Shown here: one piece after another, positions 22,184 through 51,475 of the stretch
Layout of the letters: each line of letters opens with the position of its first letter
How positions within the stretch are numbered: position 1 is the stretch's first letter
DNA from: a plasmid
Length of the DNA: 64,000 nucleotides
Reading direction: 5' to 3' (one strand)
Assembly: GCF_053078305.1 (NCBI RefSeq)
Contig: NZ_CP166875.1
Translations under genes and position numbers: made by a program
The notes under the pieces: generated by a model
The model's input: the letters and a program-made list of their open reading frames with translations, nothing else
The model's database searches: none
What the model was told of the DNA's origin: nothing

Positions 22184-22635
22184 TAATACCCCGACAAGAT
22201 TAAATTCTGGTTAACGATATCATTATACAGCGAATAATATAATTATGGTTCACGTATTATTATCCGTGACTCTTTCCTGGTAACTCCCGCATAATAACTT
22301 CACTTTTCCAGTATTCCAGAAGATGATGTTTTTTCCTCGATAATAAAAATGTGCCAATATGGAAATAAGAAATCGGATTTTTTATCAGCATACGCAAATT
22401 TTCAGATAACAATGAATACAGATGTATTTTATATACACAGATAAAACCGCGCAACAGACATAAATATGACAGTAGCATGAAAAAGCAGAGAGAGACAGGG
22501 TGATACAGAAAAGTAACTATTTTTTTAGCTATAGTATTATTGGTTTTACCTATTTTCGTGATTGTGTTTCTGTATATTGGGGGTTCGCGCCCATTTCCTC
22601 TAAAAGTCTCACCTTGCTTAGGTAATTAATTGAAT

Positions 22636-23217
22636 TTATTTATAAAACGTTGCAATTTTAGCATCATTTTTTATTGTTCTTTTTAACCTGAAGTACGTCG
22701 ATCGAGAGATACCTGTTTTTTCTGTCACACTGCCCAGAGATTCTCCCTGTGATATAAGCTCCAACGCTGTAGGCGTTCGTGGATGCTTCTTCCTGCCAAA
22801 TTTTACGCCTGCGGCAAGTGCCGCTATTCTTCCGTCGTTTGTCCGCTCCAGAATACGCTCACGTTCCGCTTCAGCTACAGCAGCAAGGATTTGGATAACC
22901 ATTTTGCCCATTGTCCCTTCTGTACTGAGACCGTTCTCCAGGAACCGGATGGCGATCCCCTTTTTGTAACAGCTATCAACCACACGAATCATGTCAGCAG
23001 TGTTACGCCCCAGTCGGTCCATTTTTGTACAGATGATTACGTCGTCTTTCTCTGCACGGGCCAACAACCGCTGTAGTCCTTCCCGTTCATCAGTTGCGCC
23101 AGTCATCATATCCGTAAAAATACGATCTTCCCGTACCCCGGCATTTTTTAGCTCCGAGATTTGATGTGTTAGCTTCTGATGACTGGTTGATACCCGTGCA
23201 TACCCCAATAACGCCAT
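22636..23217 (-). CDS. tnpR: Serine recombinase / resolvase
   Basis: N-terminal catalytic serine motif (GYARVSTSHQ), C-terminal HTH; divergent from the transposase gene. Confidence 0.85.
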   Translation of the reverse strand: MALLGYARVSTSHQKLTHQISELKNAGVREDRIFTDMMTGATDEREGLQRLLARAEKDDVIICTKMDRLGRNTADMIRVVDSCYKKGIAIRFLENGLSTEGTMGKMVIQILAAVAEAERERILERTNDGRIAALAAGVKFGRKKHPRTPTALELISQGESLGSVTEKTGISRSTYFRLKRTIKNDAKIATFYK

Positions 23218-23373
23218 TTTTAGTCTCACTTATCGTTTTTGACACTGCATGGTATCATAATGTACAAAATACGATTTTTGAAACCTGCTTTTATGCTGTT
23301 TTAGACAGGTATCAGATATCTTAATATTTGATACTAGCCATATTTAACAAATATTTAGCATTTTGGTAAATGT

Positions 23374-26300
23374 ATGCAGAAGTACAAGAAAAGAATTAGT
23401 ATATTAACAAAAAGTGAAATAAATGAATTATATCAAGTCCCCTCTTTTAATCCTGTTGAAAGGGATGAGTTTTTTTCGCTGGATATCAGCCTTAAAAGAG
23501 AAATTGATAAAATAATAAATATAGAAAGCAGGGTGTATCTGATATTAATAACAGGGTATTTCAGATATAAACCTGTGATTCCTGAATTTACATTAAAAGA
23601 CGTAAAAAGGGATGTGAAATATATTATCCAGACATATTATAAAAACGAAAGTACTAATCTCAATTTAAACATACCTAAAAGTACAAAGTACCGCCTTGTT
23701 AAACGAATGCTTTCTACTCTAGGATTTGAACAACTCACCCCATCTATAAAAAATGAGTTAAGTGAACGTCTGAATGATGTTGCTACTATATGTATGGAAC
23801 CAAAATATATTTTTGATGAATTACTTGCTTTTTTAGGACAGCGGCGTATAGCTCTTCCTGGATACAGTACTGTCCAGAACCTCGTTTCAGATGCTTTAAA
23901 CTTTGAAAGGAAAAGGACAATTAATATTTTGTCAAAGAGAATTTATCCTGCCACTGCACAAAAGATTACATCCATCATCCATGATGATGGAATATTAAAT
24001 TCCATCAGGGGATATAATTATAGCACGAGAGACTTCTCAGCATCAGAAATAGAAAATGAATTAAGAACTCACAATGTGATAAGTAGTATTTACTATGAAA
24101 TAAAAGATATAATTAATTCATTAGGTATATCCCAGGGAAACATGGAGTACTATGCAACTATCGTAAAACACAGTACAACATTCAGACTTAAGCGACACCC
24201 TAAATGGCAAGGAATACTTTATTTGTGCTGCTACTTGTACTTCAGATACAGAGAGATAAATGATAAAATAATCACAGCCTTCAGATATTTAGTAAAAAAA
24301 CATAAAGACGCTTCAGTTTTGTTTGCAAAAGCTCGGGCAACAGAGGAAATAGATCTAATAAATAAAAAGCTTAAGTTTGCGAGTAAAATATTTAACTTCT
24401 TCGTTGATAGTAACATTGAAGACAGCATCCCTTTTGGATATGTTCGTGAAAAGGTTTTTTCACTTATATCGAAAGATGATATGCATCTTGTGAGTGAATT
24501 TTTTGACAAAAATAAAATCGATGTAATTGAATATCAATGGCAGTATATTGACAGCCATCACCTTAAGATCGCCAATTCAATCCGAAAGCTTTTTCTGGCT
24601 ATAGATATAGTATATGACAACGAGAAGTCTGTTATTGGCCAGCAAATTACTGCTGCCAAGGATGATCTCAGAGGAAAAGGAAAGCTGGATGCTAAGGATC
24701 TGAGGGTAATTCATCCATCCGAGAAAAATTACATTGTAAAAGAAGGAGAAATTAACACTCAACGATTCGAATTTCATATGTACAGCAGGGTATCTAACCA
24801 TCTGGAAAACGGTGTCTTTTATGCTGCGGAGAGTGAACAAAACAAGAGACTGGAAGATGATCTCATAGAACGAAGTTACTGGCATAAGAATAAATCGATT
24901 TTGATAGAGAAAACAGGCCTTGAACGACTTATCACACCAATAACGCAGACTCTTAATGAGCTGGAGAATACCTTTAGCGATAAACTGGCTCGTATAACCA
25001 TTGGAATAAACTCAGATGCTAATGAGTTTGTGAAAAAACAACCACACTCCAACAGATTACAGTGGAGTCTGGCCAGTAAAAAATGGAAGACCAGCATCGA
25101 TAATCCGATTTACAATCAGATAAAAAATATCGGAATAGTTGACGTAATGAAGTATGTAAACAATGAGACGAATTTTTTGTCTGTGTTTAATGCCATATCA
25201 TCCAGGAAAAATAATCTTGAAGCTGACTATAATGACCTTCTTGCCTGTATATTTGGTAATGGCGCAAATTATGGTGTTCACAGAATGGCATCTGCATCAG
25301 ACCGTAGTATTGGAATACTACGTGATGTGAATGACAAATTCATTCGTCCAGAAACAACAGGAATGGCCAACACAGTAATATCTGATGCAATTGCAAATCT
25401 TTCTGTATATAAATACTGGACGATAAATGAAGATTCTCCATTTGGAAGTGTTGATGGGCAGAAGCACACTTGCAGAATAAATACATTTAAAGCCCGTTAT
25501 TCTGCCAAGTATTTCAGAAAGGGGAAAGGGGTTTCTGCGATGACACTGGTATCTAATCATGTGCCATTATCAACTGTGGTAATTTCTCCAAATGAATATG
25601 AAGGTCATTTTGCATTTGACTTGTTATATAACAACACCAGTGAAATACAACCAAAGTCATTAGCGACTGACAATCATGGTATAAACAACGTTAATTTTGC
25701 GATTCTTGACATTTTTGGCTATCAGTTTTCACCACGTTATGCAAAATTCAAGAAAATATTTAATGAATTATTTGATGTTATACTGGAGAGTGATAAACTC
25801 ATTATAAAACTTAAAAAACAATTTAACTTTAAGCTCATTGAACATGAATGGGAAAACATCCAACATATTATTTGTTCTTTAAGCAGAAAAACAACCATTC
25901 AAAGTACGGTTGTTAAGAAGTTATCTAATACAAAGCGTAGCAACAAGACATTAGCAGCACTTCGGGAGTATGACCGAGTTATAAAATGCATATATGTCCT
26001 GGATTATGCTGACAATAAAACCTTAAGGCAATTTGTGCAACAAGCACTGAACAGAGGTGAAGCTTATCATCAACTAAGAAGAGCAATAGCATCAGTAAAT
26101 GGAAATCAATTTCGCGGTGGTAATGACTACCAAATAGATCAATGGAACGACTGTGCGAGGTTAATAGCTAATTGTGTAATCTATTATAATTCAGCAATAT
26201 TATCCAGGCTGGTCGAGAAATTTGAAAAAGAAAATAATAAAAAAGCGATAGATGTTCTGGCTAACTTATCCCCAGTAGCATGGAGACACATTCTCCTTGG

Positions 26301-26412
26301 AGGGAATTATTCTTTTGAAGATCAAGTTGCGATCACAAATTTGGACAGTCTTTTGGAGGGAGTAGACCCACTAAGTGATATCGGAGATATTGAGTCCGAA
26401 TATGACGGTTAA
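23374..26412 (+). CDS. tnpA: Tn3-family DDE transposase
   Basis: 1012 aa, size and organisation typical of Tn3-family TnpA; AT-rich codon usage unlike the backbone. Confidence 0.8.
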   Translation: MQKYKKRISILTKSEINELYQVPSFNPVERDEFFSLDISLKREIDKIINIESRVYLILITGYFRYKPVIPEFTLKDVKRDVKYIIQTYYKNESTNLNLNIPKSTKYRLVKRMLSTLGFEQLTPSIKNELSERLNDVATICMEPKYIFDELLAFLGQRRIALPGYSTVQNLVSDALNFERKRTINILSKRIYPATAQKITSIIHDDGILNSIRGYNYSTRDFSASEIENELRTHNVISSIYYEIKDIINSLGISQGNMEYYATIVKHSTTFRLKRHPKWQGILYLCCYLYFRYREINDKIITAFRYLVKKHKDASVLFAKARATEEIDLINKKLKFASKIFNFFVDSNIEDSIPFGYVREKVFSLISKDDMHLVSEFFDKNKIDVIEYQWQYIDSHHLKIANSIRKLFLAIDIVYDNEKSVIGQQITAAKDDLRGKGKLDAKDLRVIHPSEKNYIVKEGEINTQRFEFHMYSRVSNHLENGVFYAAESEQNKRLEDDLIERSYWHKNKSILIEKTGLERLITPITQTLNELENTFSDKLARITIGINSDANEFVKKQPHSNRLQWSLASKKWKTSIDNPIYNQIKNIGIVDVMKYVNNETNFLSVFNAISSRKNNLEADYNDLLACIFGNGANYGVHRMASASDRSIGILRDVNDKFIRPETTGMANTVISDAIANLSVYKYWTINEDSPFGSVDGQKHTCRINTFKARYSAKYFRKGKGVSAMTLVSNHVPLSTVVISPNEYEGHFAFDLLYNNTSEIQPKSLATDNHGINNVNFAILDIFGYQFSPRYAKFKKIFNELFDVILESDKLIIKLKKQFNFKLIEHEWENIQHIICSLSRKTTIQSTVVKKLSNTKRSNKTLAALREYDRVIKCIYVLDYADNKTLRQFVQQALNRGEAYHQLRRAIASVNGNQFRGGNDYQIDQWNDCARLIANCVIYYNSAILSRLVEKFEKENNKKAIDVLANLSPVAWRHILLGGNYSFEDQVAITNLDSLLEGVDPLSDIGDIESEYDG

Positions 26413-26478
26413 CAACATGATAAATAATGGTTTTTATGCTAAGAGTGAGACTTTTGGAGGAAATGGGCGCAGAACCCC

Positions 26479-35120: not shown

Positions 35121-35139
35121 GGGATTTCCTCCGTTGTTC

Positions 35140-37754: not shown

Positions 37755-37850
37755 GTTCTGATGTGGATGTACAGGAGCCAGAAAAGTGAAAACCCCGATA
37801 ATCTTCTTTAACTTTGGCGAGTGAGAAAGATTACCGGGGCCATCTAAAAA
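37755..37850 (-). ncRNA. copA: CopA-type antisense RNA (replication control), inferred
   Basis: Imperfect long stem-loop (ccccgataatctt...aagattaccgggg) in the repA leader between copB and tap; position as in IncFII replicons. Confidence 0.4.
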
Positions 37851-37890
37851 CCGTATAGCCAACAATTCAGCTATGCGGGGAGTATAGTTA

Positions 37891-39384: not shown

Positions 39385-39665
39385 TGTCAGTATTCTGGCT
39401 GGAAGTCCTCAGTACACGCTCGTAAGCGGCCCTCACGGCCCGCTAACGCGGAGATACGCCCCGACTTCGGGTAAACCCTCGTCGGGACCACTCCGACCGC
39501 GCACATAAGCTCTATCATAGCTGACAGCGGGTATGGCTTTGCAGGGTGGGGATGGGTAAGGTGAAATCTATCAATCAGTACCGGCTTACGCCGGGCTTCG
39601 GCGGTTTTACTCCGGTATCACATGTAACCACAGCGTGCCGCCTTACATGCGCTGACGCGCATAAA
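39385..39665 (+). repeat. Repeat family D copy 1 (about 280 bp, upstream of a toxin-antitoxin cassette)
   Basis: Near-identical to 41273-41548 and partially to 49862-49950; contains GC hairpins including a terminator-like cgccgggcttcggcggtttta. Confidence 0.6.
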
Positions 39666-39751
39666 CAACAAGTTGCTACATTAGCTTACAGGTTAATTCA
39701 CCTTGCATAAGATTAGCATATAGGTTAATGTTTATCGAAATGGGAGGTCAT

Positions 39752-40081
39752 ATGTTTAGCGTTGTTTATCACCCGGAAGCCAGGGAAGAAGCCACAGCAT
39801 TACCCATAAAAATCAGGGTGAAGTTTGACCGTCTCATCAGCAAACTGGAATATGACGCCCGATTACTGCGGGAACCGGATACAAAGCCCCTGGGGGATGG
39901 ACTTTTTGAGATCCGCACGATGGGGACGGACATAGCCAGAGGCATCTGGGTATACCACAAAGGCAATACCATCATCATGCTCCGGGTTTTCATCAAGAAG
40001 TCTCAGAAAACGCCAGCAAAAGAAATCGATCTCGCCAAAAAGCGGTTAGCGGAGGTACTTAATGAAACTGGTAAGCCATAA
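39752..40081 (+). CDS. higB: RelE/ParE-superfamily toxin, HigB-like
   Basis: Toxin-first arrangement with overlapping HTH antitoxin; RBS gggagg. Confidence 0.55.
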   Translation: MFSVVYHPEAREEATALPIKIRVKFDRLISKLEYDARLLREPDTKPLGDGLFEIRTMGTDIARGIWVYHKGNTIIMLRVFIKKSQKTPAKEIDLAKKRLAEVLNETGKP

Positions 40082-40343
40082 AGAACTGCATAACGAGTGG
40101 ATGCAGGACGACGAATATCGCGCTGCATGGCAGGAAGAAGAACGTAAGGAGAAACTCAGGGAGTTGCTTGCAGAATGGCGTAAGCATGACAATTTGACAA
40201 AAGCGCAGGTTGCTGAACGCATGGGGGTTACTCCTCCTGTTATTTCCCGCCTGGAAAACAACATCACTAAAGCCAGCATCGACACCCTGACTCGCTATGC
40301 CCATGCGTGCGGTATCAAAAAACCTGTTATTACGCTGTACTGA
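40062..40343 (+). CDS. higA: HTH (XRE-type) antitoxin, HigA-like
   Basis: HTH segment (LTKAQVAERMGVTPPVISRLENN); overlaps toxin stop. Confidence 0.55.
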   Translation: MKLVSHKELHNEWMQDDEYRAAWQEEERKEKLRELLAEWRKHDNLTKAQVAERMGVTPPVISRLENNITKASIDTLTRYAHACGIKKPVITLY

Positions 40344-40531: not shown

Positions 40532-40810
40532 ATGAAAAACAATACCGCACAGGCAACAAAAGTAATTACCGCGCATGTGCCATTACCTATGGCTGATAAA
40601 GTCGACCAGATGGCCGCCAGACTGGAACGCTCCCGGGGCTGGGTTATCAAACAGGCACTTTCTGCATGGCTTGCCCAGGAGGAGGAGCGTAATCGCCTGA
40701 CGCTGGAAGCCCTGGACGATGTGATATCCGGACAGATTATCGACCATCAGGCTGTACAGGCCTGGGCAGACAGCCTCAGTACTGACAATCCGTTACCGGT
40801 TCCACGCTGA
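40532..40810 (+). CDS. Ribbon-helix-helix antitoxin (ParD/CopG-like)
   Basis: 92 aa; stop overlaps start of the downstream toxin. Confidence 0.55.
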   Translation: MKNNTAQATKVITAHVPLPMADKVDQMAARLERSRGWVIKQALSAWLAQEEERNRLTLEALDDVISGQIIDHQAVQAWADSLSTDNPLPVPR

Positions 40811-41085
40811 TGGAACTGAAGTGGACCAGTAAGGCGCTTTCTGATTTGGCGCGGTTATATGATTTTCTGGTGCTGGCCAGTAAACCTGCCGCCGCCAGAA
40901 TGGTACAGTCCCTGATACAGGCACCGGTCATTCTGTTAACTCATCCACGTATGGGAGAACAGTTGTTTCAGTTTGAACCCAGGGAGGTCAGACGGATTTT
41001 TGCTGGCGAGTACGAAATCCGTTACGAACTTAATGGGCTGCGTTTGGGAAACGTACAATATTGTACGGTTGCGCTATTGCGGTAG
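40810..41085 (+). CDS. ParE/RelE-family toxin
   Basis: 91 aa, coupled to the upstream RHH antitoxin. Confidence 0.55.
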   Translation: MELKWTSKALSDLARLYDFLVLASKPAAARMVQSLIQAPVILLTHPRMGEQLFQFEPREVRRIFAGEYEIRYELNGLRLGNVQYCTVALLR

Positions 41086-41272
41086 GGTGTACTCCAACGC
41101 TATACGGTATTTGGCAGACCTTTAGGGACATGAGATAACCTAAATGCAATAAGAGAAAAGCAATAACTTAAAGGCGATAGCTGATCACGATGAATCAATC
41201 AGTTACTTATCCGCATCGATTAAAAAATGCTCCTAACGTACAATAATTCCGTTTCCCAAACCGACCCCTCAG

Positions 41273-41548
41273 TGTTCTGGCTGGAAGTCCTCAGTACACG
41301 CTCGTAAGCGGCCCTGACGGCCCGCTAACGCGGAGATACGCCCCGACTTCGGGTAAACCCTCGTCGGGACCACTCCGACCGCGCACAGAAGCTCTCTCAT
41401 GGCTGAAAGCGGGTATGGCTTAACAGGGTGGGAATGGGATAGGCGAAATCTATCAATCAGTACCGGCTTACGCCGGGCTTCGGCGGTTTTACTCCGGTAT
41501 CACATGTAACCACAGCGTACCGCCTTCCATGCCGCTGGCGCGGCATAT
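41273..41548 (+). repeat. Repeat family D copy 2
   Basis: Near-identical to D1. Confidence 0.6.
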
Positions 41549-41600: not shown

Positions 41601-41700
41601 GAGGTGATAAATGGCACAGGTTAATATGAGTTTAAGAATCGACGCTGAACTGAAGGATGCTTTTATGGGGTCAGCCTGGAATTCGGAAAATAAACCACGT
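41601..41700 (+). pseudogene. RelB/DinJ-like antitoxin N-terminal fragment, truncated by a miniature element
   Basis: MAQVNMSLRIDAELKDAF then runs straight into the GGGG terminus of the Tn3-type inverted repeat. Confidence 0.5.
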
Positions 41701-41856
41701 TAAGACTATTTTTTAGCCAAATGACTGTCAGGAATCCGGACGGTCGGAACATTTCGTACAGCCTTTACGTTCAGTGAGTTAGCTGGCCTGGATGTAACCA
41801 CTCGTTCAACTCAATTCTCTTAGCGTGGGAAAATTTCCGTTTTCCAAGCGGACCCC
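41667..41856 (+). mobile_element. Tn3-derived miniature element (TIME-like, 190 bp)
   Basis: Left IR GGGGTCAGCCTGGAATTCGGAAAATAAACCACGTTAAG (41667-41704) and right IR, reverse complement GGGGTCCGCTTGGAAAACGGAAATTTTCCCACGCTAAG (41819-41856); no coding capacity. Confidence 0.65.
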
Positions 41857-41875
41857 TAGAAGAAGGGAAGCGATA

Positions 41876-42546: not shown

Positions 42547-42657
42547 GCTGTTGCCTTTTGATGTATATAGGTACGTTACTACATTGTAGGGCATGAAATA
42601 GTACAATGCAAGAAATGTACTTGATTAGGGGTAGTCTTCGCCGCTTGTTGCTGTCAG

Positions 42658-42692
42658 ATATTAATGCTAATGTATGCATACATTAGCATTAA
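42658..42692. promoter_or_regulatory. Perfect 34-bp palindrome attaatgctaatgtatgcatacattagcattaat, copy 1
   Basis: Directly visible; identical copy at 47242-47275. Confidence 0.6.
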
Positions 42693-42729
42693 TGAGGGAT
42701 GATATGTGAGAGACAAAACCAGGGAGGCC

Positions 42730-43068
42730 ATGCGGTTTTTTTTAGGCGGCAGGTGTTACACGGCTGAAAACCTTGAAAAGGATTATCTGGCTGAAGTTGC
42801 TAATTACAGTGACGACCGCTGGGAAGCACCCCAACGCGCCGCACGTCTGGCAGCTGCCGTAAAGCGTTACAAGACATCAGAAATGCTGCGCTTTATTTTT
42901 GCTACCACTGCCTACGATCCCGATCCAGATTTAACCCCGCTGACTGTGAGACGTTTGTGCAAGGCATTGTTCGGCAGAACAGGAAGCCAGTGGCTGGTTG
43001 TTGAAGTTTTTGGGGAGAAGGGGCGTCAGCACCGCAGCGCGGACAGCAATCCGGAGATGGTGGAAAAA
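42730..43068 (+). pseudogene. Hypothetical gene (about 160 aa when rejoined), 5' part, interrupted by Tn3-family copy 2
   Basis: ATG with RBS agggagg; frame continues across the transposon into 46969-47214. Confidence 0.5.
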
Positions 43069-43125
43069 GGGGGTTCGCGCCCATTTCCTCTAAAAGTCTC
43101 ACCTTGCTTAGGTAATTAATTGAAT

Positions 43126-43707
43126 TTATTTATAAAACGTTGCAATTTTAGCATCATTTTTTATTGTTCTTTTTAACCTGAAGTACGTCGATCGAGAGAT
43201 ACCTGTTTTTTCTGTCACACTGCCCAGAGATTCTCCCTGTGATATAAGCTCCAACGCTGTAGGCGTTCGTGGATGCTTCTTCCTGCCAAATTTTACGCCT
43301 GCGGCAAGTGCCGCTATTCTTCCGTCGTTTGTCCGCTCCAGAATACGCTCACGTTCCGCTTCAGCTACAGCAGCAAGGATTTGGATAACCATTTTGCCCA
43401 TTGTCCCTTCTGTACTGAGACCGTTCTCCAGGAACCGGATGGCGATCCCCTTTTTGTAACAGCTATCAACCACACGAATCATGTCAGCAGTGTTACGCCC
43501 CAGTCGGTCCATTTTTGTACAGATGATTACGTCGTCTTTCTCTGCACGGGCCAACAACCGCTGTAGTCCTTCCCGTTCATCAGTTGCGCCAGTCATCATA
43601 TCCGTAAAAATACGATCTTCCCGTACCCCGGCATTTTTTAGCTCCGAGATTTGATGTGTTAGCTTCTGATGACTGGTTGATACCCGTGCATACCCCAATA
43701 ACGCCAT
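43126..43707 (-). CDS. tnpR: Serine recombinase / resolvase (copy 2)
   Basis: Identical to 22636-23217. Confidence 0.85.
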   Translation of the reverse strand: MALLGYARVSTSHQKLTHQISELKNAGVREDRIFTDMMTGATDEREGLQRLLARAEKDDVIICTKMDRLGRNTADMIRVVDSCYKKGIAIRFLENGLSTEGTMGKMVIQILAAVAEAERERILERTNDGRIAALAAGVKFGRKKHPRTPTALELISQGESLGSVTEKTGISRSTYFRLKRTIKNDAKIATFYK

Positions 43708-43863
43708 TTTTAGTCTCACTTATCGTTTTTGACACTGCATGGTATCATAATGTACAAAATACGATTTTTGAAACCTGCTTTTATGCTGTTTTAGACAGGT
43801 ATCAGATATCTTAATATTTGATACTAGCCATATTTAACAAATATTTAGCATTTTGGTAAATGT

Positions 43864-46800
43864 ATGCAGAAGTACAAGAAAAGAATTAGTATATTAACAA
43901 AAAGTGAAATAAATGAATTATATCAAGTCCCCTCTTTTAATCCTGTTGAAAGGGATGAGTTTTTTTCGCTGGATATCAGCCTTAAAAGAGAAATTGATAA
44001 AATAATAAATATAGAAAGCAGGGTGTATCTGATATTAATAACAGGGTATTTCAGATATAAACCTGTGATTCCTGAATTTACATTAAAAGACGTAAAAAGG
44101 GATGTGAAATATATTATCCAGACATATTATAAAAACGAAAGTACTAATCTCAATTTAAACATACCTAAAAGTACAAAGTACCGCCTTGTTAAACGAATGC
44201 TTTCTACTCTAGGATTTGAACAACTCACCCCATCTATAAAAAATGAGTTAAGTGAACGTCTGAATGATGTTGCTACTATATGTATGGAACCAAAATATAT
44301 TTTTGATGAATTACTTGCTTTTTTAGGACAGCGGCGTATAGCTCTTCCTGGATACAGTACTGTCCAGAACCTCGTTTCAGATGCTTTAAACTTTGAAAGG
44401 AAAAGGACAATTAATATTTTGTCAAAGAGAATTTATCCTGCCACTGCACAAAAGATTACATCCATCATCCATGATGATGGAATATTAAATTCCATCAGGG
44501 GATATAATTATAGCACGAGAGACTTCTCAGCATCAGAAATAGAAAATGAATTAAGAACTCACAATGTGATAAGTAGTATTTACTATGAAATAAAAGATAT
44601 AATTAATTCATTAGGTATATCCCAGGGAAACATGGAGTACTATGCAACTATCGTAAAACACAGTACAACATTCAGACTTAAGCGACACCCTAAATGGCAA
44701 GGAATACTTTATTTGTGCTGCTACTTGTACTTCAGATACAGAGAGATAAATGATAAAATAATCACAGCCTTCAGATATTTAGTAAAAAAACATAAAGACG
44801 CTTCAGTTTTGTTTGCAAAAGCTCGGGCAACAGAGGAAATAGATCTAATAAATAAAAAGCTTAAGTTTGCGAGTAAAATATTTAACTTCTTCGTTGATAG
44901 TAACATTGAAGACAGCATCCCTTTTGGATATGTTCGTGAAAAGGTTTTTTCACTTATATCGAAAGATGATATGCATCTTGTGAGTGAATTTTTTGACAAA
45001 AATAAAATCGATGTAATTGAATATCAATGGCAGTATATTGACAGCCATCACCTTAAGATCGCCAATTCAATCCGAAAGCTTTTTCTGGCTATAGATATAG
45101 TATATGACAACGAGAAGTCTGTTATTGGCCAGCAAATTACTGCTGCCAAGGATGATCTCAGAGGAAAAGGAAAGCTGGATGCTAAGGATCTGAGGGTAAT
45201 TCATCCATCCGAGAAAAATTACATTGTAAAAGAAGGAGAAATTAACACTCAACGATTCGAATTTCATATGTACAGCAGGGTATCTAACCATCTGGAAAAC
45301 GGTGTCTTTTATGCTGCGGAGAGTGAACAAAACAAGAGACTGGAAGATGATCTCATAGAACGAAGTTACTGGCATAAGAATAAATCGATTTTGATAGAGA
45401 AAACAGGCCTTGAACGACTTATCACACCAATAACGCAGACTCTTAATGAGCTGGAGAATACCTTTAGCGATAAACTGGCTCGTATAACCATTGGAATAAA
45501 CTCAGATGCTAATGAGTTTGTGAAAAAACAACCACACTCCAACAGATTACAGTGGAGTCTGGCCAGTAAAAAATGGAAGACCAGCATCGATAATCCGATT
45601 TACAATCAGATAAAAAATATCGGAATAGTTGACGTAATGAAGTATGTAAACAATGAGACGAATTTTTTGTCTGTGTTTAATGCCATATCATCCAGGAAAA
45701 ATAATCTTGAAGCTGACTATAATGACCTTCTTGCCTGTATATTTGGTAATGGCGCAAATTATGGTGTTCACAGAATGGCATCTGCATCAGACCGTAGTAT
45801 TGGAATACTACGTGATGTGAATGACAAATTCATTCGTCCAGAAACAACAGGAATGGCCAACACAGTAATATCTGATGCAATTGCAAATCTTTCTGTATAT
45901 AAATACTGGACGATAAATGAAGATTCTCCATTTGGAAGTGTTGATGGGCAGAAGCACACTTGCAGAATAAATACATTTAAAGCCCGTTATTCTGCCAAGT
46001 ATTTCAGAAAGGGGAAAGGGGTTTCTGCGATGACACTGGTATCTAATCATGTGCCATTATCAACTGTGGTAATTTCTCCAAATGAATATGAAGGTCATTT
46101 TGCATTTGACTTGTTATATAACAACACCAGTGAAATACAACCAAAGTCATTAGCGACTGACAATCATGGTATAAACAACGTTAATTTTGCGATTCTTGAC
46201 ATTTTTGGCTATCAGTTTTCACCACGTTATGCAAAATTCAAGAAAATATTTAATGAATTATTTGATGTTATACTGGAGAGTGATAAACTCATTATAAAAC
46301 TTAAAAAACAATTTAACTTTAAGCTCATTGAACATGAATGGGAAAACATCCAACATATTATTTGTTCTTTAAGCAGAAAAACAACCATTCAAAGTACGGT
46401 TGTTAAGAAGTTATCTAATACAAAGCGTAGCAACAAGACATTAGCAGCACTTCGGGAGTATGACCGAGTTATAAAATGCATATATGTCCTGGATTATGCT
46501 GACAATAAAACCTTAAGGCAATTTGTGCAACAAGCACTGAACAGAGGTGAAGCTTATCATCAACTAAGAAGAGCAATAGCATCAGTAAATGGAAATCAAT
46601 TTCGCGGTGGTAATGACTACCAAATAGATCAATGGAACGACTGTGCGAGGTTAATAGCTAATTGTGTAATCTATTATAATTCAGCAATATTATCCAGGCT
46701 GGTCGAGAAATTTGAAAAAGAAAATAATAAAAAAGCGATAGATGTTCTGGCTAACTTATCCCCAGTAGCATGGAGACACATTCTCCTTGGAGGGAATTAT

Positions 46801-46902
46801 TCTTTTGAAGATCAAGTTGCGATCACAAATTTGGACAGTCTTTTGGAGGGAGTAGACCCACTAAGTGATATCGGAGATATTGAGTCCGAATATGACGGTT
46901 AA
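43864..46902 (+). CDS. tnpA: Tn3-family DDE transposase (copy 2)
   Basis: Identical to 23374-26412. Confidence 0.8.
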   Translation: MQKYKKRISILTKSEINELYQVPSFNPVERDEFFSLDISLKREIDKIINIESRVYLILITGYFRYKPVIPEFTLKDVKRDVKYIIQTYYKNESTNLNLNIPKSTKYRLVKRMLSTLGFEQLTPSIKNELSERLNDVATICMEPKYIFDELLAFLGQRRIALPGYSTVQNLVSDALNFERKRTINILSKRIYPATAQKITSIIHDDGILNSIRGYNYSTRDFSASEIENELRTHNVISSIYYEIKDIINSLGISQGNMEYYATIVKHSTTFRLKRHPKWQGILYLCCYLYFRYREINDKIITAFRYLVKKHKDASVLFAKARATEEIDLINKKLKFASKIFNFFVDSNIEDSIPFGYVREKVFSLISKDDMHLVSEFFDKNKIDVIEYQWQYIDSHHLKIANSIRKLFLAIDIVYDNEKSVIGQQITAAKDDLRGKGKLDAKDLRVIHPSEKNYIVKEGEINTQRFEFHMYSRVSNHLENGVFYAAESEQNKRLEDDLIERSYWHKNKSILIEKTGLERLITPITQTLNELENTFSDKLARITIGINSDANEFVKKQPHSNRLQWSLASKKWKTSIDNPIYNQIKNIGIVDVMKYVNNETNFLSVFNAISSRKNNLEADYNDLLACIFGNGANYGVHRMASASDRSIGILRDVNDKFIRPETTGMANTVISDAIANLSVYKYWTINEDSPFGSVDGQKHTCRINTFKARYSAKYFRKGKGVSAMTLVSNHVPLSTVVISPNEYEGHFAFDLLYNNTSEIQPKSLATDNHGINNVNFAILDIFGYQFSPRYAKFKKIFNELFDVILESDKLIIKLKKQFNFKLIEHEWENIQHIICSLSRKTTIQSTVVKKLSNTKRSNKTLAALREYDRVIKCIYVLDYADNKTLRQFVQQALNRGEAYHQLRRAIASVNGNQFRGGNDYQIDQWNDCARLIANCVIYYNSAILSRLVEKFEKENNKKAIDVLANLSPVAWRHILLGGNYSFEDQVAITNLDSLLEGVDPLSDIGDIESEYDG

Positions 46903-46968
46903 CAACATGATAAATAATGGTTTTTATGCTAAGAGTGAGACTTTTGGAGGAAATGGGCGCAGAACCCC

Positions 46969-47214
46969 ACTGTGAGACGTTTGTGCAAGGCATTGTTCGG
47001 CAGAACCGGAAGCCAGTGGCTGGTTGTTGAAGTTTTTGGGGAGAAGGGGCGTCAGCACCGCAGCGCGGACAGCAATCCGGAGATGGTGGAAAAAATGGCT
47101 GCCAGATATCGTCATGCCGCCGAACTACACTGGTCCGCAACGCTGGCAGAAATTGAACGGGTAAAGCGGCTTTATCAGACGAAAATTAAGAAATCCAAAA
47201 AAGAAGTGGGTTGA
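46969..47214 (+). pseudogene. 3' part of the interrupted hypothetical gene
   Basis: Repeats residues LTVRRLCKALF...EMVEK of the 5' part, then continues to a stop. Confidence 0.5.
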
Positions 47215-47241
47215 CTGCCATTGTTATTCTTTTCCTTCATC

Positions 47242-47275
47242 ATTAATGCTAATGTATGCATACATTAGCATTAAT
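47242..47275. promoter_or_regulatory. Perfect 34-bp palindrome, copy 2
   Basis: Identical to copy 1. Confidence 0.6.
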
Positions 47276-47299
47276 GATGGTGCGTTGAACGTACAATAA

Positions 47300-47420
47300 G
47301 GGGTCCGCTTGGAATTCGGAAATTTTCCCACGCTAAGTGAATTGAGTTGAACGAGTGGTTACATCCAGGCCAGCTAACTCACTGAACGTAAAGACTGTAC
47401 GAAATGTTCCGACCGTCCGA
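47300..47420 (+). repeat. Solo Tn3-type terminus: inverted copy of the right 120 bp of the miniature element
   Basis: Begins GGGGTCCGCTTGGAATTCGGAAATTTTCCCACGCTAAG; reverse complement of 41739-41856; no partner IR found to its right. Confidence 0.6.
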
Positions 47421-47577
47421 TAACCATTTGGCTTACTTCCGTACATTTCCTTGCGTAGATGTACAGAATTGTACGTTTTCGTACGGTTGGCCCTCAAACC
47501 CCATCCTTGAGTAGTGGCATAAGAAAACGGCTCCCTGTTGTGGAAGCCGTTATCAGTTGCACGATTAGCATTGGAGT

Positions 47578-48003
47578 TTAAAGGATACCTTTCTGAGAAA
47601 ATGTGATCCGGGTTGCTTCATTTAAATCCATATATTTTAGGGTGTCAGGAGATGCCCAGACTATATCCTGAAACTCCTCATTAAATGTAACTGTACGGTT
47701 TGTACTGATACAGTCGAATATTAGGTAAATCATGTAAATGTCCTCGTGGGTACCATCCGGGTACGTTTTTGTACGGATATCATCACGAAAGGCCCAGGGT
47801 TTTACGTCAGTGATATGCAGTTCTTTTCCCAGTTCTTCCTTTATTTCACGCCTCAATGCTGTTTCCATAGTCTCTCCGGGTTCCATTCCTCCACCGGGCA
47901 GTGCCCATTGGCCCGGGAATACTCCGCGATCAGAGGCCATTTTACAAAGTAGAAACTCACCTTCATTTTGTATCACAGGGCACACTATTACTCTCTGGCG
48001 CAT
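47578..48003 (-). CDS. Nudix hydrolase
   Basis: Nudix box [23 protein letters not shown]; low-GC operon. Confidence 0.8.
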
Positions 48004-48004
48004 T

Positions 48005-48739
48005 TTATGTCCTCAACATCATGGCTTTTTGGATAACCTTATCAGAAAAATCATCAATGTCATCCGGGTGAGCACATACCATAATCCGCTCACGAAGGTG
48101 TAACGGAAGATTATCAGTAAAATGTTGATATTCCGCATGCCATCCTGTGATCCATTTTATCTTCATTTCCTCATCTGGAAATTCTTCAGGCCGTACACCA
48201 TGAATTTCATCATCATTGAGATGCATGAGTGAATGTGCGATGGGATAATTAATGAATGCTATAATGTCTGGCTCTGTAAGTAATTCATTTATTCTACTCC
48301 AGAGCACCATGTATGCATCATATTGTGCTTTATTTATATATTCGGACTTCAGCATGAAGTTGATAAAAATATAATCCTCAATATGGGATCTCTCCATAAT
48401 AAGGTTAAACCCTTTATCCAGCCAAGATTTTATCAGTAATGCCCGTTGTATCATAAAATTAAGCTGGATTAGATAACCGTAGTTACTGGTATCGTCAAAA
48501 AGGTAAGGAAGGAGAGTGTGGTGGACACTTTTTTCATCTATCGCGACAGTGTCTGGATCTACCTTAAATAACTCCTTTGACATGCGTCTCAGAAGAGTAC
48601 TTTTACCTACACCGGAATTACCCGACAGACATATATACAGAGGATTTCGAGTTTTATTCTTCTCTTTTTTATCTGCTGACCAAGGATCCATATACAAGTA
48701 ATTATATCTCATACTGTAAACTCCATTTTGTCCAACCAA
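48005..48739 (-). CDS. P-loop nucleoside/nucleotide kinase (dNK/TMK-like)
   Basis: Walker [10 protein letters not shown] in an about 240 aa protein; overlaps both neighbours; start uncertain. Confidence 0.6.
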
Positions 48740-49575
48740 AAGCGGTTGTTCTTACATTTTTGCATGATTTCATTATTTCCGAAAATTGCACTGATTATAT
48801 GATCTTGTGAATCTGTCAGCATATTTCCCAACAGAGTATAGTTTTCTCCATCAGGGATAATAATGTCAAAATTGGGTTCCATAACAACATTGGCTTTGTC
48901 CCGTTCTTCGAAAGTTGCCCAACTAATGGGCATGTTAGGGTGTTGTTTTTTTAGCATTACCATTTTCTCTTTAAATATATCCGTATTGATTTCCAGTTTA
49001 TCTCTTTTTTCTTTTCCGACTCCTAGAGGACAGAACTGGTAAAATCGCCAAGCTTGGATCTTATAGGGCAGAGAATCAACCCAGCAAACAATATCACTGA
49101 GATGATTAATGTTAGACTGAGATACGACGGTCGTGAGTTTTATATTAATTCGATTATTATTTTGGGGTAACCATGTTAATATATTTTTGATAACCCTGTG
49201 TTGGTTACTCATTTTATCACTGCGAATTTCTGAATTGACAAGACTGTCAATTCCATCAATTGGTATTCCTACCCAGTCTAACACCGGATTTAACCGAGCA
49301 TGATCCATAATAAATCGATGCCCGACCGTGGAGAGATATGTCATAAAACCCAGTTGCTTAGCGTATTCAATCAGATCAATGAAATCACTCCGGGATGTAG
49401 GTTCCCCTCCGGTAAAACCGATACGACGGAATCCCATTTTATACATCCGCTCAATTACATTACGAGCACTAGCAAGAGAAGAGTCCTGAATTCCAGGTGT
49501 ACGAAAACACTGATCACATCCTAGGTTACAATGTGAAGTTATTCTGAAATCTAAAAGAAGGGTGCTAATATCCAT
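48709..49575 (-). CDS. Radical SAM enzyme, viperin-like (prokaryotic viperin candidate)
   Basis: CxxxCxxC (SHCNLGCDQCF), GGEP motif (IGFTGGEPT), and C-terminal WRFYQFCPLG region resembling viperin RWKVFQCLLIEG; 288 aa. Confidence 0.6.
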   Translation of the reverse strand: MDISTLLLDFRITSHCNLGCDQCFRTPGIQDSSLASARNVIERMYKMGFRRIGFTGGEPTSRSDFIDLIEYAKQLGFMTYLSTVGHRFIMDHARLNPVLDWVGIPIDGIDSLVNSEIRSDKMSNQHRVIKNILTWLPQNNNRINIKLTTVVSQSNINHLSDIVCWVDSLPYKIQAWRFYQFCPLGVGKEKRDKLEINTDIFKEKMVMLKKQHPNMPISWATFEERDKANVVMEPNFDIIIPDGENYTLLGNMLTDSQDHIISAIFGNNEIMQKCKNNRFWLDKMEFTV

Positions 49576-49861
49576 AACAAGTCCTCTGACTATGATACAT
49601 CAATAACCATTAAAACATAATGGTTATTGCAGACCATGACAAAGCGCAACCTTCGGCTTACCAGGGATATAATATCTGCCAGTAATCAGAGCAGTGGGTT
49701 GCGCAAGGAACTCATGAATGATGAGTTCCGGTAATCGCATTACTGGAAGCCCATGATCGGAGGGACGCTATCAGTCACACCAGTGAAAATTGTGCACAGA
49801 AGCATTTTCATCACTGACAGGCCGTATGCCTCACAAGACGGGAGATAACTGGAGAATATTT

Positions 49862-49950
49862 AGTTCTTCTACCGGCTTACGCCGATTTTACTCCTGTGTT
49901 ATATGTAACCACTGTGTGCCACCTTCCATGCGCTGGTGCGGCATCAGAGT
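49862..49950 (+). repeat. Repeat family D copy 3 (3' portion only)
   Basis: Matches the 3' 85 bp of D1/D2; followed by a TA cassette. Confidence 0.5.
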
Positions 49951-50059
49951 AAAAAATCAGCATTAAATTTATTTGCAAATGTATGAGTAATACAGACTTG
50001 TTAACGGGTCCTTTCAGATGTATCTTTAAGACTTATTAAACAGTCTTAAAAGGTGCATT

Positions 50060-50311
50060 ATGCCTAACATCATTCTGTCTGACATCAGTGCAAGTGTCAG
50101 TGAACTGAAAAAAAATCCGATGGCGACAGTCGGTGCTGGTGATGGTTATCCGGTCGCCATTCTGAATCGCAATCAGCCGGCATTCTACTGTGTTCCTGCT
50201 GAACTGTATGAAAGGATGCTTGATGCTCTGGATGACCAGGAGCTGGTGAAACTGGTTACTGAACGTAGCAGTCAACCTCTGCATGATGTTGACCTGGACA
50301 GTTATTCATGA
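50060..50311 (+). CDS. Phd/YefM-family antitoxin
   Basis: 83 aa; stop overlaps start of the downstream toxin. Confidence 0.65.
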   Translation: MPNIILSDISASVSELKKNPMATVGAGDGYPVAILNRNQPAFYCVPAELYERMLDALDDQELVKLVTERSSQPLHDVDLDSYS

Positions 50312-50595
50312 CTTATACGATAAAATTCAGGGATGATGCGCTTAAAGAATGGCTGAAACTGGATAAGACCATTCAACAACAGTTTGTGAAAAAACTAAAA
50401 AAATGTAGCAAAAATCCTCATATACTGTCTGCAAAACTACGTGGGCTAAAGGACTGCTACAAAATTAAACTTCGTGCATCGGGATTTCGTCTGGTTTATC
50501 AGGTGATTGATGATATGTTAATTATTGCGGTTGTTGCGGTAGGTAAACGAGAACGTAGTAACGTTTATTATCTCGCCAGTGAGAGAATGAGATAG
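50308..50595 (+). CDS. RelE/ParE-family toxin
   Basis: 95 aa; coupled to the YefM-like antitoxin. Confidence 0.65.
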   Translation: MTYTIKFRDDALKEWLKLDKTIQQQFVKKLKKCSKNPHILSAKLRGLKDCYKIKLRASGFRLVYQVIDDMLIIAVVAVGKRERSNVYYLASERMR

Positions 50596-50759
50596 TAACA
50601 TAAATAGCCTTTCCCGCAGATAACTCTCAGAATTGTTATTCTCTCTGTGGCCTCGCCTGAGGCGGAAAAAGAAAAGTTTTGTTGAGAGAATGATTTTACC
50701 TGCCGGGATGAGTCTGGGGTTATTTATATTACCAGACAAATTGAAACGGAGGGACATGT

Positions 50760-51167
50760 TTGATGACAATACTTGTGACGGCACAGGCTCAACTCATAGT
50801 TGGTGAGGCTATGGCGATAAAAAGTTTAGCTCCTGATGGAATGTTGGCCGCTGTATTTGAAGACGACGGGAATACCGGATATTTCTATGCACTTGATGAG
50901 TCCGTTGAAGGTAACCCTGTCAGGGATGCTGTGCATATATATAACGTTGAAGACATTTCAGATGCTCACATCCCCTCTGATGTGAAGATTGGCTGGTCTG
51001 AGGATTGCCTGAAGTGTGTTCTGCTGATAAACGGATATCCACATGGGGTATTCGATTTTGAGGGGAAGAACGGCTACTGTCGAAGTGGATTCCCGCCACC
51101 GGTTAATCATGAATGGTCTGTTCAGGGGCATTCATGGGATGATTACGTCGATAATTTCTTCCGGTGA
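50760..51167 (+). CDS. Hypothetical protein (DUF2251-like)
   Basis: 135 aa ORF; no recognised motif. Confidence 0.4.
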   Translation: MMTILVTAQAQLIVGEAMAIKSLAPDGMLAAVFEDDGNTGYFYALDESVEGNPVRDAVHIYNVEDISDAHIPSDVKIGWSEDCLKCVLLINGYPHGVFDFEGKNGYCRSGFPPPVNHEWSVQGHSWDDYVDNFFR

Positions 51168-51475
51168 TTGAACCGAAAAATTACCTGACGGACAAGTCTG
51201 GGGCCGAATCGTGATGATTCATCATGGCCGTTTATAGTTCAGCAGTCTTGTTCTTTTGCTGTCAGTGGGATACCAGGAAAATAACCGATTGTTACCAGAC
51301 AGAATAACCATCATAAGACGTCACAAGACGGTGACGCTTACATAGTTCCGGGGAGTTAAACAATATACCCTGACTTTGTAATCATTTGAATTATATCCGT
51401 AACGTGTAACTTCCTGCCGTAACACCGGATTTAAGATATTCAAACTTTATCTTTATACCGATATTAAGAGACACA

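What the first reader, a model, noticed from the sequence alone, without database searches (positions are those of the whole stretch)
42658..47275. Gene flanked by identical perfect 34-bp palindromes and split by a transposon with a 126-bp imperfect flanking duplication
Seen in sequence: the palindrome attaatgctaatgtatgcatacattagcattaat occurs at 42658-42692 and 47242-47275, immediately upstream and downstream of one hypothetical gene. That gene is interrupted by Tn3-family copy 2, but instead of a 5-bp target duplication the transposon is flanked by about 126 bp direct repeats of the gene (42943-43068 and 46969-47095) that differ by one base and one extra A. Inference: not a simple insertion; more likely homologous recombination between two differently interrupted alleles, or an unusual transposition intermediate. 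The palindromes could be operator or recombination sites.
Basis: partly seen in the sequence, partly recalled or inferred. Interest (0 to 1): 0.55.

Follow-up and report, generated by a model that had tools for sequence, protein, structure and literature searches.

The report
Hybrid transposon junction in palindrome-flanked plasmid gene
A small plasmid gene of unknown function is split by a Tn3-type transposon whose two flanks come from two different versions of that gene, which is an ordinary plasmid-fusion scar, while the identical palindromes around the gene are a conserved, undescribed control-like site found with this gene across many enterobacterial plasmids.

Summary
A perfect 34-bp palindrome lies at 42660-42693 and 47242-47275. 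A 3900-bp Tn3-family element (43069-46968) is flanked by 126-bp direct repeats with one mismatch.

The repeat is not a target duplication. The left arm (42660-43068) matches a rare allele of the plasmid gene 'yadA' with 0 mismatches; its variant base is exact in 9 of 948 plasmids. The right arm (46969-47275) matches the common IncFII allele with 0 mismatches; its variant is exact in 918 of 948. The single mismatch is that population polymorphism. The same transposon makes normal 5-bp duplications elsewhere. In this window both copies sit at seams between different F-like backbones. So the junction is a recombinant or cointegrate scar joining two independently hit alleles, which is a known kind of event.

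The palindrome is the more novel part:
- Its 30-nt core is almost invariant beside yadA homologues down to about 47% protein identity in at least 8 genera.
- The core always sits 17-18 nt downstream of a TTG, contains a TGnTAATGT extended -10, and ends just before the ribosome-binding site.

It is most likely an operator overlapping the yadA promoter, but this is unproven. No function is known for YadA.

The parts
42645..42650 (+). Putative -35 hexamer (TTGTTG) of the yadA promoter
   Evidence: A TTG lies 17 nt (11 loci) or 18 nt (3 loci) upstream of the palindrome core in 14 of 14 homologue loci whose upstream DNA is otherwise unalignable (first seen). The generic consensus scan did not call a promoter here.
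42660..42693 (.). Upstream 34-bp perfect palindrome. It contains the extended -10-like TGcTAATGT (42665-42673) and ends 12 nt before the GTG start, directly abutting the GAGG ribosome-binding site.
42706..43068 (+). yadA 5' part (codons 1-121), rare 'A' allele type. The reading frame then runs into the transposon end (ORF 42706-43119).
   Evidence: 0 mismatches to the L001/L003 allele over 42660-43068 versus 15 to the L002 allele. ORF list.
42943..43068 (+). Left copy of the 126-bp repeat (A at 42981)
   Evidence: The A variant is exact in 9 of 948 plasmids.
43069..46968 (+). Tn3-family transposon, copy 2. IRL from 43069 and IRR ending 46968 (34-nt arms, 88% complementary); tnpR serine recombinase 43126-43719 (-); about 144-bp tnpR-tnpA intergenic region (presumed res) 43720-43863; tnpA 43864-46902 (+).
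   Evidence: NF033527 Tn3-family transposase 604.9 bits against a cutoff of 500, and serine-recombinase hits for tnpR. IRs. Identical to copy 1. Annotated the same way in other records.
46969..47094 (+). Right copy of the 126-bp repeat (C at 47007)
   Evidence: The C variant is exact in 918 of 948 plasmids.
46969..47217 (+). yadA 3' part, common IncFII allele type (stop codon 47215-47217)
   Evidence: 0 mismatches to the L002 allele over 46969-47275; 21 mismatches plus 14 gap columns to L001.
47242..47275 (.). Downstream 34-bp palindrome (perfect over 42 bp, 47238-47279), 24 nt after the stop codon
   Evidence: RNA hairpin -31.3 kcal/mol, z -7.2. No T-tract and not called as a terminator.
22579..26478 (+). 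Tn3-family transposon, copy 1 (identical, direct orientation). It joins the region upstream of finO to the interior of an ISCro1 transposase gene and has no target duplication.
41737..41857 (.). 121-nt segment 'R' downstream of vapC. An inverted copy at 47299-47419 (97% complementary) brackets the whole vapC/phd-palindrome-yadA::Tn-palindrome block.
   Evidence: (I1).

Best explanation
There are two separate things here.

(1) The 126-bp 'flanking duplication' is a hybrid junction, not a target duplication. One copy of a Tn3-family transposon was inserted after position 43068 of a rare allele of the plasmid gene yadA (5-bp target AAAAA). This transposon normally makes 5-bp duplications. The same transposon also entered a second, common allele of yadA 121 bp further upstream (target ACTGT). 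Either of two routes would then join 'allele-1 left part - transposon - allele-2 right part': RecA-type recombination within the 3.9-kb identical transposon copies on two plasmids, or direct replicative transposition from the first plasmid into the second allele, which forms a cointegrate. The 126 bp between the two insertion points is therefore present on both sides, once from each allele, and the one mismatch is the difference between the alleles. The gene is inactivated. The window as a whole is a fusion of several F-like plasmid backbones with the two transposon copies at the seams.

(2) The palindromes belong to the gene, not to the transposon. The upstream copy overlaps the predicted yadA promoter: -35 TTGnnn, 17 nt, extended -10 TGcTAATGT inside the left arm, dyad centre near the expected transcription start, and the ribosome-binding site immediately after the right arm. 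It most likely acts as an operator for a dimeric repressor. YadA itself is the most parsimonious candidate because it is the only constant neighbour. The downstream copy, present in some lineages only, would be a second operator and/or a 3' mRNA hairpin.

What is shown: allele identities, the polymorphism, transposon behaviour elsewhere, and conservation and fixed geometry of the palindrome. What is inferred: the order and route of the events, promoter activity, and the identity of any binding protein.
For: Junction:
- The left arm 42660-43068 has 0/409 mismatches to the L001 allele. The right arm 46969-47275 has 0/307 mismatches to the L002 allele. Each arm differs from the other allele type (15 mismatches for the left arm; 21 plus a 14-column gap for the right).
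- The A variant of the repeat is exact in 9/948 plasmids and the C variant in 918/948. The 9 appear to be the same rare-allele plasmids that share the window's left-hand vapC/phd context, plus the L010 mosaic allele; I inferred this from the top hits and did not list all nine.
- The same element has clean 5-bp duplications in pFHI_NMBU_11_03 (AACAT) and E. albertii p2RM9973 (TATTA). Six of eight copies examined lack them, so it is often left at rearrangement junctions.
- Right of copy 2, 47467-60608 is 99.4% identical to pFHI_NMBU_11_02. Left of it, the backbone is only about 93% identical to anything in the collection.
- The window carries two finO genes, two sok RNAs and two sets of leading-region repeats.
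- Copy 1 also joins unrelated contexts.
- TSD tracing and cointegrate or recombination origins of TSD-less replicative elements are established practice (PMC5142620).

Palindrome:
- The intact gene is bracketed by both palindromes in other plasmids.
- The core is 27-30/30 identical beside homologues whose coding DNA is only 67-78% identical and whose flanks are unalignable.
- 9 of 14 occurrences in one-genome-per-species data are next to a homologue at 47-95% protein identity, mostly with two flanking copies.
- TTG lies at -17/-18 from the core in 14/14 loci, and a Shine-Dalgarno sequence follows within a few nt.
- 9 arm pairs are invariant while the outer pairs change symmetrically; covariation score 0.154 vs 0.101 +/- 0.018, with 0/500 shuffles reaching it.
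Against: Junction:
- A natural intact mosaic allele exists (L010: rare-type 5' end, common-type 3' end, A at the SNP). The flanks alone therefore do not prove two parents, and the argument rests mainly on the SNP coinciding with the polymorphism and on the exact 0-mismatch matches.
- Neither the parental junctions nor the reciprocal junction were found in any collection.
- The reciprocal copy is not in the window.
- Two directly repeated copies with an apparently intact resolvase would be expected to resolve.
- An assembly chimera through the identical 3.9-kb repeats cannot be excluded from sequence alone.

Palindrome:
- The generic sigma-70 scan found no promoter at this site.
- The YadA model is all-helical with no significant similarity to any DNA-binding fold, and it has no Pfam, NCBIfam, PHROG or PADLOC family.
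- Five palindrome occurrences have no adjacent homologue.
- The symmetric variation of the outer arm positions is more typical of a hairpin or cruciform constraint than of a simple operator.
Confidence: 0.72

Rival explanations
1. Assembly artefact. The source strain carries several plasmids with identical 3.9-kb transposon copies, and the assembler joined the left flank of one insertion to the right flank of another. The real molecules would then be two separately interrupted yadA alleles, each with a normal 5-bp duplication.
For: The two copies in the window are 100% identical over 3900 bp, and neither has a target duplication. The related strain FHI_NMBU_11 carries this element on two different plasmids. 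No other record or metagenome contig contains this junction structure.
Against: Swapping the flanks of the two copies within the window does not restore any 5-bp duplication (ATATT, TGTAT, AAAAA, ACTGT), so at least two further unseen copies would be needed. TSD-less copies of this element are common in finished plasmids (6 of 8). Even under this rival, two alleles of the same gene were hit independently, so the biological reading of the repeat is unchanged.
Confidence: 0.1
2. Aberrant single transposition event. Staggered target cuts about 126 bp apart, or an unusual intermediate, duplicated 126 bp of one allele, and a later point mutation created the mismatch.
For: Direct repeats immediately abut both transposon ends. 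An intact mosaic allele (L010) shows that a single ancestor with a rare-type 5' end and a common-type 3' end is conceivable.
Against: The mismatch falls exactly on the one A/C polymorphism that separates the two allele types within these 126 bp. A random substitution would do this roughly once in 378 cases (my calculation). L010 still differs from the window arms at 3 positions. The same element gives 5-bp duplications elsewhere. Tn3-family transposition generates 5-bp duplications (PMC5142620).
Confidence: 0.03
3. The palindromes act as nucleic-acid structures rather than as a repressor operator. They could be RNA or ssDNA hairpins that stabilise or insulate the yadA transcript (REP-like), or cruciform or recombination sites that delimit an exchangeable cassette. 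Solo palindromes would then be deletion scars.
For: The hairpins are very stable (RNA -31.3 kcal/mol, z -7.2; ssDNA -18 kcal/mol). The outer arm positions change symmetrically and the centre tolerates asymmetry. In L001 the downstream palindrome is a conserved island between diverged flanks. Orphan copies lie at other cassette boundaries, for example directly after HigBA-type TA genes in Photorhabdus, and there is a third copy in L010. The surrounding region is a mosaic of shuffled modules.
Against: The near-invariance of 26 core bases across genera is more than a hairpin needs. If the conserved TTG/17 nt/TGnTAATGT promoter is real, transcription starts inside the upstream palindrome, so that copy cannot form a full RNA hairpin. 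Homology between contexts does not break exactly at the palindrome on the upstream side. There is no T-tract terminator, no Rfam family, and no recombinase- or transposase-like domain in YadA.
Confidence: 0.25

Closest known systems
Recombinant or cointegrate junctions of replicative (Tn3-family, IS26) elements in mosaic resistance and virulence plasmids
   Same: The transposon copies lack matching target duplications, have flanks from different plasmid lineages, and occur as two identical direct copies on one multi-replicon F-like molecule. This fits the TSD-tracing logic of PMC5142620.
   Different: Both parents were hit in the same small gene, 121 bp apart, so the scar mimics a long target duplication. 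The reciprocal product was not observed.
Tn3/Tn1000-type minimal transposons (tnpR and tnpA divergently transcribed, about 38-bp GGGG inverted repeats, 5-bp duplication)
   Same: Tn3-family transposase above the NCBIfam cutoff, a serine recombinase, divergent gene layout, GGGG-initiated inverted repeats, and 5-bp duplications in two other plasmids.
   Different: No passenger genes. The element is AT-rich, with its best relatives in Escherichia, E. albertii and Salmonella plasmids. I did not determine its registered name, and the res subsites were not mapped.
Autoregulatory operators overlapping core promoters (for example LexA, TetR or phage repressor operators; antitoxin operators of TA modules)
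   Same: A perfect dyad covering the -10 and expected +1, a fixed distance to the -35 and SD, sequence conserved far beyond the neighbouring DNA, and an optional second copy about 550 bp away that could allow looping.
   Different: No binding protein is identified. The 34-42-bp dyad is unusually long. The outer positions covary like a stem. The candidate regulator YadA has no recognisable DNA-binding fold.
REP elements / REPtrons and IS200/IS605 (a small gene flanked by palindromic hairpins)
   Same: A gene of about 150-160 aa is bracketed by hairpin-forming palindromes, and extra solo copies are found elsewhere.
   Different: YadA has no Y1/HUH transposase domain and is predicted to be all-alpha-helical. 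The two palindromes are identical perfect dyads rather than distinct left and right ends. There is no evidence of multiplication within genomes.

Membership tests
Tn3-family transposon | Large DDE transposase of the Tn3 family | tested here: met
   NF033527 transpos_Tn3, 604.9 bits (cutoff 500), covering 27-982 of 1012 aa.
Tn3-family transposon | Terminal inverted repeats of about 38 bp beginning GGGG | tested here: met
   34-nt arms, 88% complementary, at 43069-43102 / 46935-46968, both starting GGGG (I7).
Tn3-family transposon | Site-specific resolvase and res site | tested here: inconclusive
   tnpR matches serine-recombinase models but below the equivalog cutoffs and is annotated 'recombinase family protein'. 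It has the divergent layout with a 144-bp intergenic region. The res subsites were not mapped.
Tn3-family transposon | 5-bp target-site duplication | tested here: met
   Met for the element in general (AACAT in L005, TATTA in L006). Not met at either copy in this window, which is the point of the finding.
Recombinant / cointegrate junction between two plasmids | The two flanks derive from different lineages | tested here: met
   0-mismatch matches to two different alleles, the A/C polymorphism, and different backbones on either side.
Recombinant / cointegrate junction between two plasmids | Existence of the reciprocal junction or of parental insertions with 5-bp duplications | tested here: not met
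   Not in the window. Exact-junction scans of metagenome and genome collections found nothing, and there is no such record among plasmids or E. coli genomes. Absence from the databases does not exclude it.
Repressor operator overlapping a promoter | Dyad symmetry with conserved half-site sequence | tested here: met
   23 of 30 core columns are invariant across 12 sites from 5 genera. The core is also found in further genera.
Repressor operator overlapping a promoter | Overlap with a functional promoter | tested here: inconclusive
   Conserved TTG at -17/-18 in 14/14 loci and TGnTAATGT in the left arm, but the generic consensus scan calls no promoter. There are no transcript data.
Repressor operator overlapping a promoter | A protein that binds it | not testable with these tools
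   YadA is the only constant neighbour, but it has no recognisable DNA-binding domain.
Intrinsic (Rho-independent) terminator | GC-rich hairpin followed by a T-tract | tested here: not met
   Neither palindrome is called as a terminator. The stems are AT-rich and followed by GAGGGA / GATGGT.
REPtron / IS200-IS605-like unit | Y1 (HUH) transposase gene between the hairpins | tested here: not met
   No Pfam hit with E <= 0.001, no NCBIfam hit, and the AlphaFold model is all-helical.
Known RNA family (Rfam) | Match to a curated covariance model | tested here: not met
   The only matches in the window are CopA, two sok and AS-pc02, all elsewhere.

The most novel reading that the evidence does not exclude
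The palindrome-yadA-palindrome unit is a self-contained cassette in which YadA, an orphan all-helical protein, recognises the extruded hairpin or cruciform form of its own flanking 34-42-bp palindromes. This would serve both to autoregulate and to promote cassette exchange or deletion in the hypervariable region downstream of IncF replicons, leaving solo palindromes as scars. That would be a new kind of structure-specific DNA-binding or recombination module on clinically important plasmids.
Probability: 0.08. Interest if true: 0.65.

Novelty: new member of a known kind. Interest (0 to 1): 0.3.

Why it matters
The transposon part is a worked example showing that a 'long target duplication' around a replicative transposon can be a hybrid scar of two alleles. 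It marks a seam in a fused multi-F plasmid, which is useful for reconstructing plasmid histories but is not new biology. The palindrome part points to an undescribed, strongly conserved cis-element and an orphan protein family (YadA). Both are present on roughly a thousand or more sequenced IncF-type plasmids of E. coli, Salmonella, Klebsiella and Shigella, directly downstream of the replicon among toxin-antitoxin cassettes. If it is an autoregulated module, it offers a simple entry point (gel-shift, reporter fusion) to the function of a very common plasmid gene.

Tried and rejected
- **Sequence family searches for YadA.** Pfam, NCBIfam, PHROGs, PADLOC and a PDB sequence profile gave nothing significant.
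- **Rfam over the whole window.** Nothing at the locus.
- **Consensus promoter/terminator scans.** Nothing at either palindrome.
- **Literature.** The palindrome sequence and yadA/yacA/IncFII/palindrome term combinations returned no paper.
- **Exact-junction scans.** The parental B-left junction, the parental A-right junction and the window's own right junction gave no match in metagenome or genome collections.
- **The complete structure elsewhere.** It was not found among E. coli complete genomes or PLSDB plasmids.
- **Transposon preference for yadA.** I tested whether this transposon generally prefers yadA. Remnants and other copies lie in unrelated contexts (agg fimbriae, an IncI plasmid, phage-like DNA), so I rejected a general preference. 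The third hit in pFHI_NMBU_11_01 remains a curiosity.
- **Simple unresolved cointegrate of the two copies in the window.** Rejected, because no pairing of the four flanks gives a 5-bp duplication.
- **LexA-box or Fur-box resemblance of the palindrome.** Considered from memory only. The spacing does not fit, and I did not pursue it.

Full report
**Observation**

The perfect 34-bp palindrome ATTAATGCTAATGTATGCATACATTAGCATTAAT occurs exactly twice in the 64-kb window, at 42660-42693 and 47242-47275. None is expected by chance, even allowing 3 mismatches. The downstream copy is perfect over 42 bp (47238-47279).

Between the two palindromes lies a 3900-bp element with GGGG-initiated inverted repeats (43069-46968). 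It is 100% identical to a second, directly oriented copy at 22579-26478. It encodes a Tn3-family transposase (NF033527, 604.9 bits against a cutoff of 500) and a divergently transcribed serine recombinase.

Copy 2 is flanked by 126-bp direct repeats (42943-43068 and 46969-47094) that differ at one base: A at 42981 and C at 47007. Neither copy has a 5-bp target duplication: AAAAA|Tn|ACTGT at copy 2 and ATATT|Tn|TGTAT at copy 1.

**What the gene is**

Removing the transposon and one repeat copy restores a 160-aa ORF starting at GTG 42706. The intact gene, bracketed by the same two palindromes, is present on very many IncF-type plasmids of Escherichia, Salmonella, Klebsiella and Shigella. In a typical IncFII layout it lies downstream of the replicon, after a toxin-antitoxin pair (repA - yacA/yacB - gene - DUF6404).

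**Why the 126-bp repeat is a hybrid of two alleles**

Aligning the two halves with intact alleles gives a clean result:

| Window segment | vs L001/L003 allele (STEC plasmids, same vapC/phd left context) | vs L002 allele (common IncFII type) |
|---|---|---|
| Left arm 42660-43068 (409 nt) | 0 mismatches | 15 mismatches |
| Right arm 46969-47275 (307 nt) | 21 mismatches plus a 14-column gap | 0 mismatches |

Within the 126 bp, the two allele types differ at exactly one site, and that site is the mismatch. A 61-bp query centred on it is exact in 9 of 948 plasmids for the A form and in 918 of 948 for the C form. So the left copy carries the rare variant that goes with its left-hand context, and the right copy carries the common one.

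One caveat: an intact natural mosaic allele exists (L010, pSTEC640_4). It has a rare-type 5' end, a common-type 3' end and A at the SNP. A single mosaic ancestor is therefore conceivable. It still differs from the window arms at three positions. It would also need a later mutation that lands on the polymorphic site and produces the other allele's base, which I estimate at about 1 in 378.

The same element makes canonical 5-bp duplications in pFHI_NMBU_11_03 (AACAT) and E. albertii p2RM9973 (TATTA). Six of the eight copies inspected lack them. A 126-bp target duplication is therefore both unnecessary and unsupported.

**How the junction arose**

Two routes give the same product:
- **Route a:** two independent insertions (5-bp targets AAAAA and ACTGT, 121 bp apart) in two alleles on two plasmids, followed by a crossover within the 3.9-kb identical transposon copies.
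- **Route b:** one prior insertion, then replicative transposition from that plasmid into the second allele, which forms a cointegrate.

Either way, the left flank of copy 2 belongs to one plasmid and the right flank to another. The context agrees:
- To the right, 47467-60608 is 99.4% identical to pFHI_NMBU_11_02.
- To the left, the IncFII replicon and leading region resemble known plasmids at only about 93%.
- The window holds two finO genes (about 22.0 kb and about 53.2-53.8 kb), two sok RNAs and two sets of leading-region repeats.
- Copy 1 likewise joins the region upstream of finO to the interior of an ISCro1 transposase gene.

This is the standard picture of replicative elements at the seams of fused plasmids, read by TSD tracing (PMC5142620).

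Several things remain open. The reciprocal and parental junctions were not found anywhere. No pairing of the four flanks in the window restores a duplication, so more than one event is hidden. Two direct copies with an apparently intact resolvase would be expected to resolve. An assembly chimera through the identical repeats also cannot be excluded from sequence alone.

**The palindromes**

They belong to the gene. The 30-nt core TAATGCTAATGTATGCATACATTAGCATTA is 27-30/30 identical next to homologues in Photorhabdus, Xenorhabdus, Dickeya and Scandinavium. In those loci the coding DNA is only 67-78% identical to the window gene and the flanking DNA is unalignable.

In a scan of one genome per species, the core occurs in 14 loci. 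Nine are next to a homologue at 47-95% protein identity (Citrobacter, Phytobacter, Lelliottia, Salmonella diarizonae and others), mostly with two flanking copies. Five are 'orphans'. Two of these lie directly after HigBA-type TA genes in Photorhabdus, and a third copy occurs in L010. Solo copies are what a deletion between the two flanking copies would leave, but they also fit a more general boundary role.

The geometry of the upstream copy is fixed. A TTG lies 17 nt (11 loci) or 18 nt (3 loci) before the core in 14 of 14 loci. That places a TTGnnn hexamer 17-18 nt upstream of TGcTAATGT, an extended -10-like motif inside the left arm. A Shine-Dalgarno sequence and the start codon follow the right arm within a few nucleotides. 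The dyad centre therefore sits about where transcription should start, which is the classic position for a repressor operator.

Across 12 distinct sites, 9 arm pairs never vary while the outer pairs change symmetrically (UA<->CG, AU<->GC). The covariation score is 0.154 against 0.101 +/- 0.018 for shuffles, with 0 of 500 reaching it. So there is a fixed core plus a variable symmetric extension. The extension hints that hairpin or cruciform formation, or palindrome-templated repair, also matters.

The hairpins are stable (RNA -31.3 kcal/mol for the downstream copy). They lack a T-tract, are not called as terminators, and match no Rfam family. No paper in the searchable library contains the sequence.

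**Verdict**

The transposon junction is an ordinary, if neat, plasmid-fusion scar. I put about 0.8 on the hybrid-allele origin, about 0.1 on an assembly chimera, and a few percent on an aberrant long duplication.

The palindrome is an undescribed, strongly conserved cis-element of a very common orphan plasmid gene. I put about 0.45 on 'operator overlapping the yadA promoter, probably bound by YadA', about 0.25 on a primarily structural role (hairpin, insulator or recombination site), and the rest on unknown. Overall interest is modest.

Noticed in passing
window 47578-49575 (- strand): Directly right of the locus lies a three-gene cluster: NudI-like NUDIX hydrolase (47578-48003), deoxynucleoside-kinase-like protein (48005-48739) and a radical-SAM protein. 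The radical-SAM protein matches PADLOC pVip 'viperins associated with kinases' (E 1.6e-30). This is a likely prokaryotic viperin defence module, shared at 99.8% identity with pFHI_NMBU_11_02.
   Followed up: partly
window 22579-26478 and flanks: Transposon copy 1 also lacks a target duplication. It joins the AT-rich region upstream of a finO (ProQ/FinO) gene to the interior of an ISCro1 (IS66-family) transposase gene. No plasmid in PLSDB has these two flanks contiguous.
   Followed up: partly
L004 (NZ_CP045713.1, pFHI_NMBU_11_01) 9901-10046: The same transposon (1 mismatch in 3900 bp) is inserted in the same gene at a third position (after ...GAAGTTGCTAATT, equivalent to about window 42800). 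[quoted passage not shown] Three different junction positions in one 480-bp gene is more than chance would suggest. It may reflect local re-transposition or shared ancestry.
   Followed up: partly
window 22579-26478 and 43069-46968: Two identical, directly repeated copies with an apparently intact serine resolvase (GYARVSTSHQ motif) sit 20.5 kb apart on one molecule. Resolution would excise a 20.5-kb circle carrying the IncFII replicon. Why this has not happened is unexplained; the fusion may be recent, res may be defective, or the join may be an assembly artefact.
   Followed up: no
window 41737-41857 and 47299-47419: A 121-nt inverted repeat (97% complementary) brackets the whole vapC/phd - palindrome - yadA::Tn - palindrome block. 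A 24-nt motif GGGGNCCGCTTGGAATTCGGAAA recurs at module boundaries (also window 41667-41690 and L016 8893-8916). It could permit inversion of the block.
   Followed up: partly
window 39387-39663 and 41269-41547: A 279-bp direct repeat (94%) of the post-origin segment brackets two TA cassettes: HigB/HigA-like at 39728-40343, and a second antitoxin/toxin-like ORF pair (not family-checked) at 40532-41085. It is followed by a truncated yacA start. The region downstream of the IncFII replicon looks like an array of exchangeable cassettes separated by reused spacer modules.
   Followed up: partly
window 9300-14100 vs 28100-35300; 29013-29184 and 36828-36984; about 22.0 kb and about 53.2-53.8 kb: F-plasmid modules are duplicated within one window: two sets of leading-region repeats (82-96% identical), two sok antitoxin RNAs and two finO genes. 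This indicates a fusion of at least two or three F-like backbones. CopA RNA at 37784-37874 marks the single IncFII-type replicon seen.
   Followed up: partly
L023 799-828 and L030 7094-7123 (Photorhabdus): Orphan copies of the palindrome core lie immediately after a HigB/HigA-type TA module with no yadA homologue nearby. The TA family is the same as at window 39728-40343.
   Followed up: partly
P0113, P0060 (and L012 2487-2528): Some database entries for YadA homologues start inside the palindrome (N-termini such as M..HAYISI / MLMYAYISIK are translations of the palindrome). These are probably mis-called start codons.
   Followed up: no
window 947-1032: A tandem array of 9-bp units (GAAACCACC-like, at least 6 in-register copies), presumably encoding a short peptide repeat. 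It was not examined.
   Followed up: no
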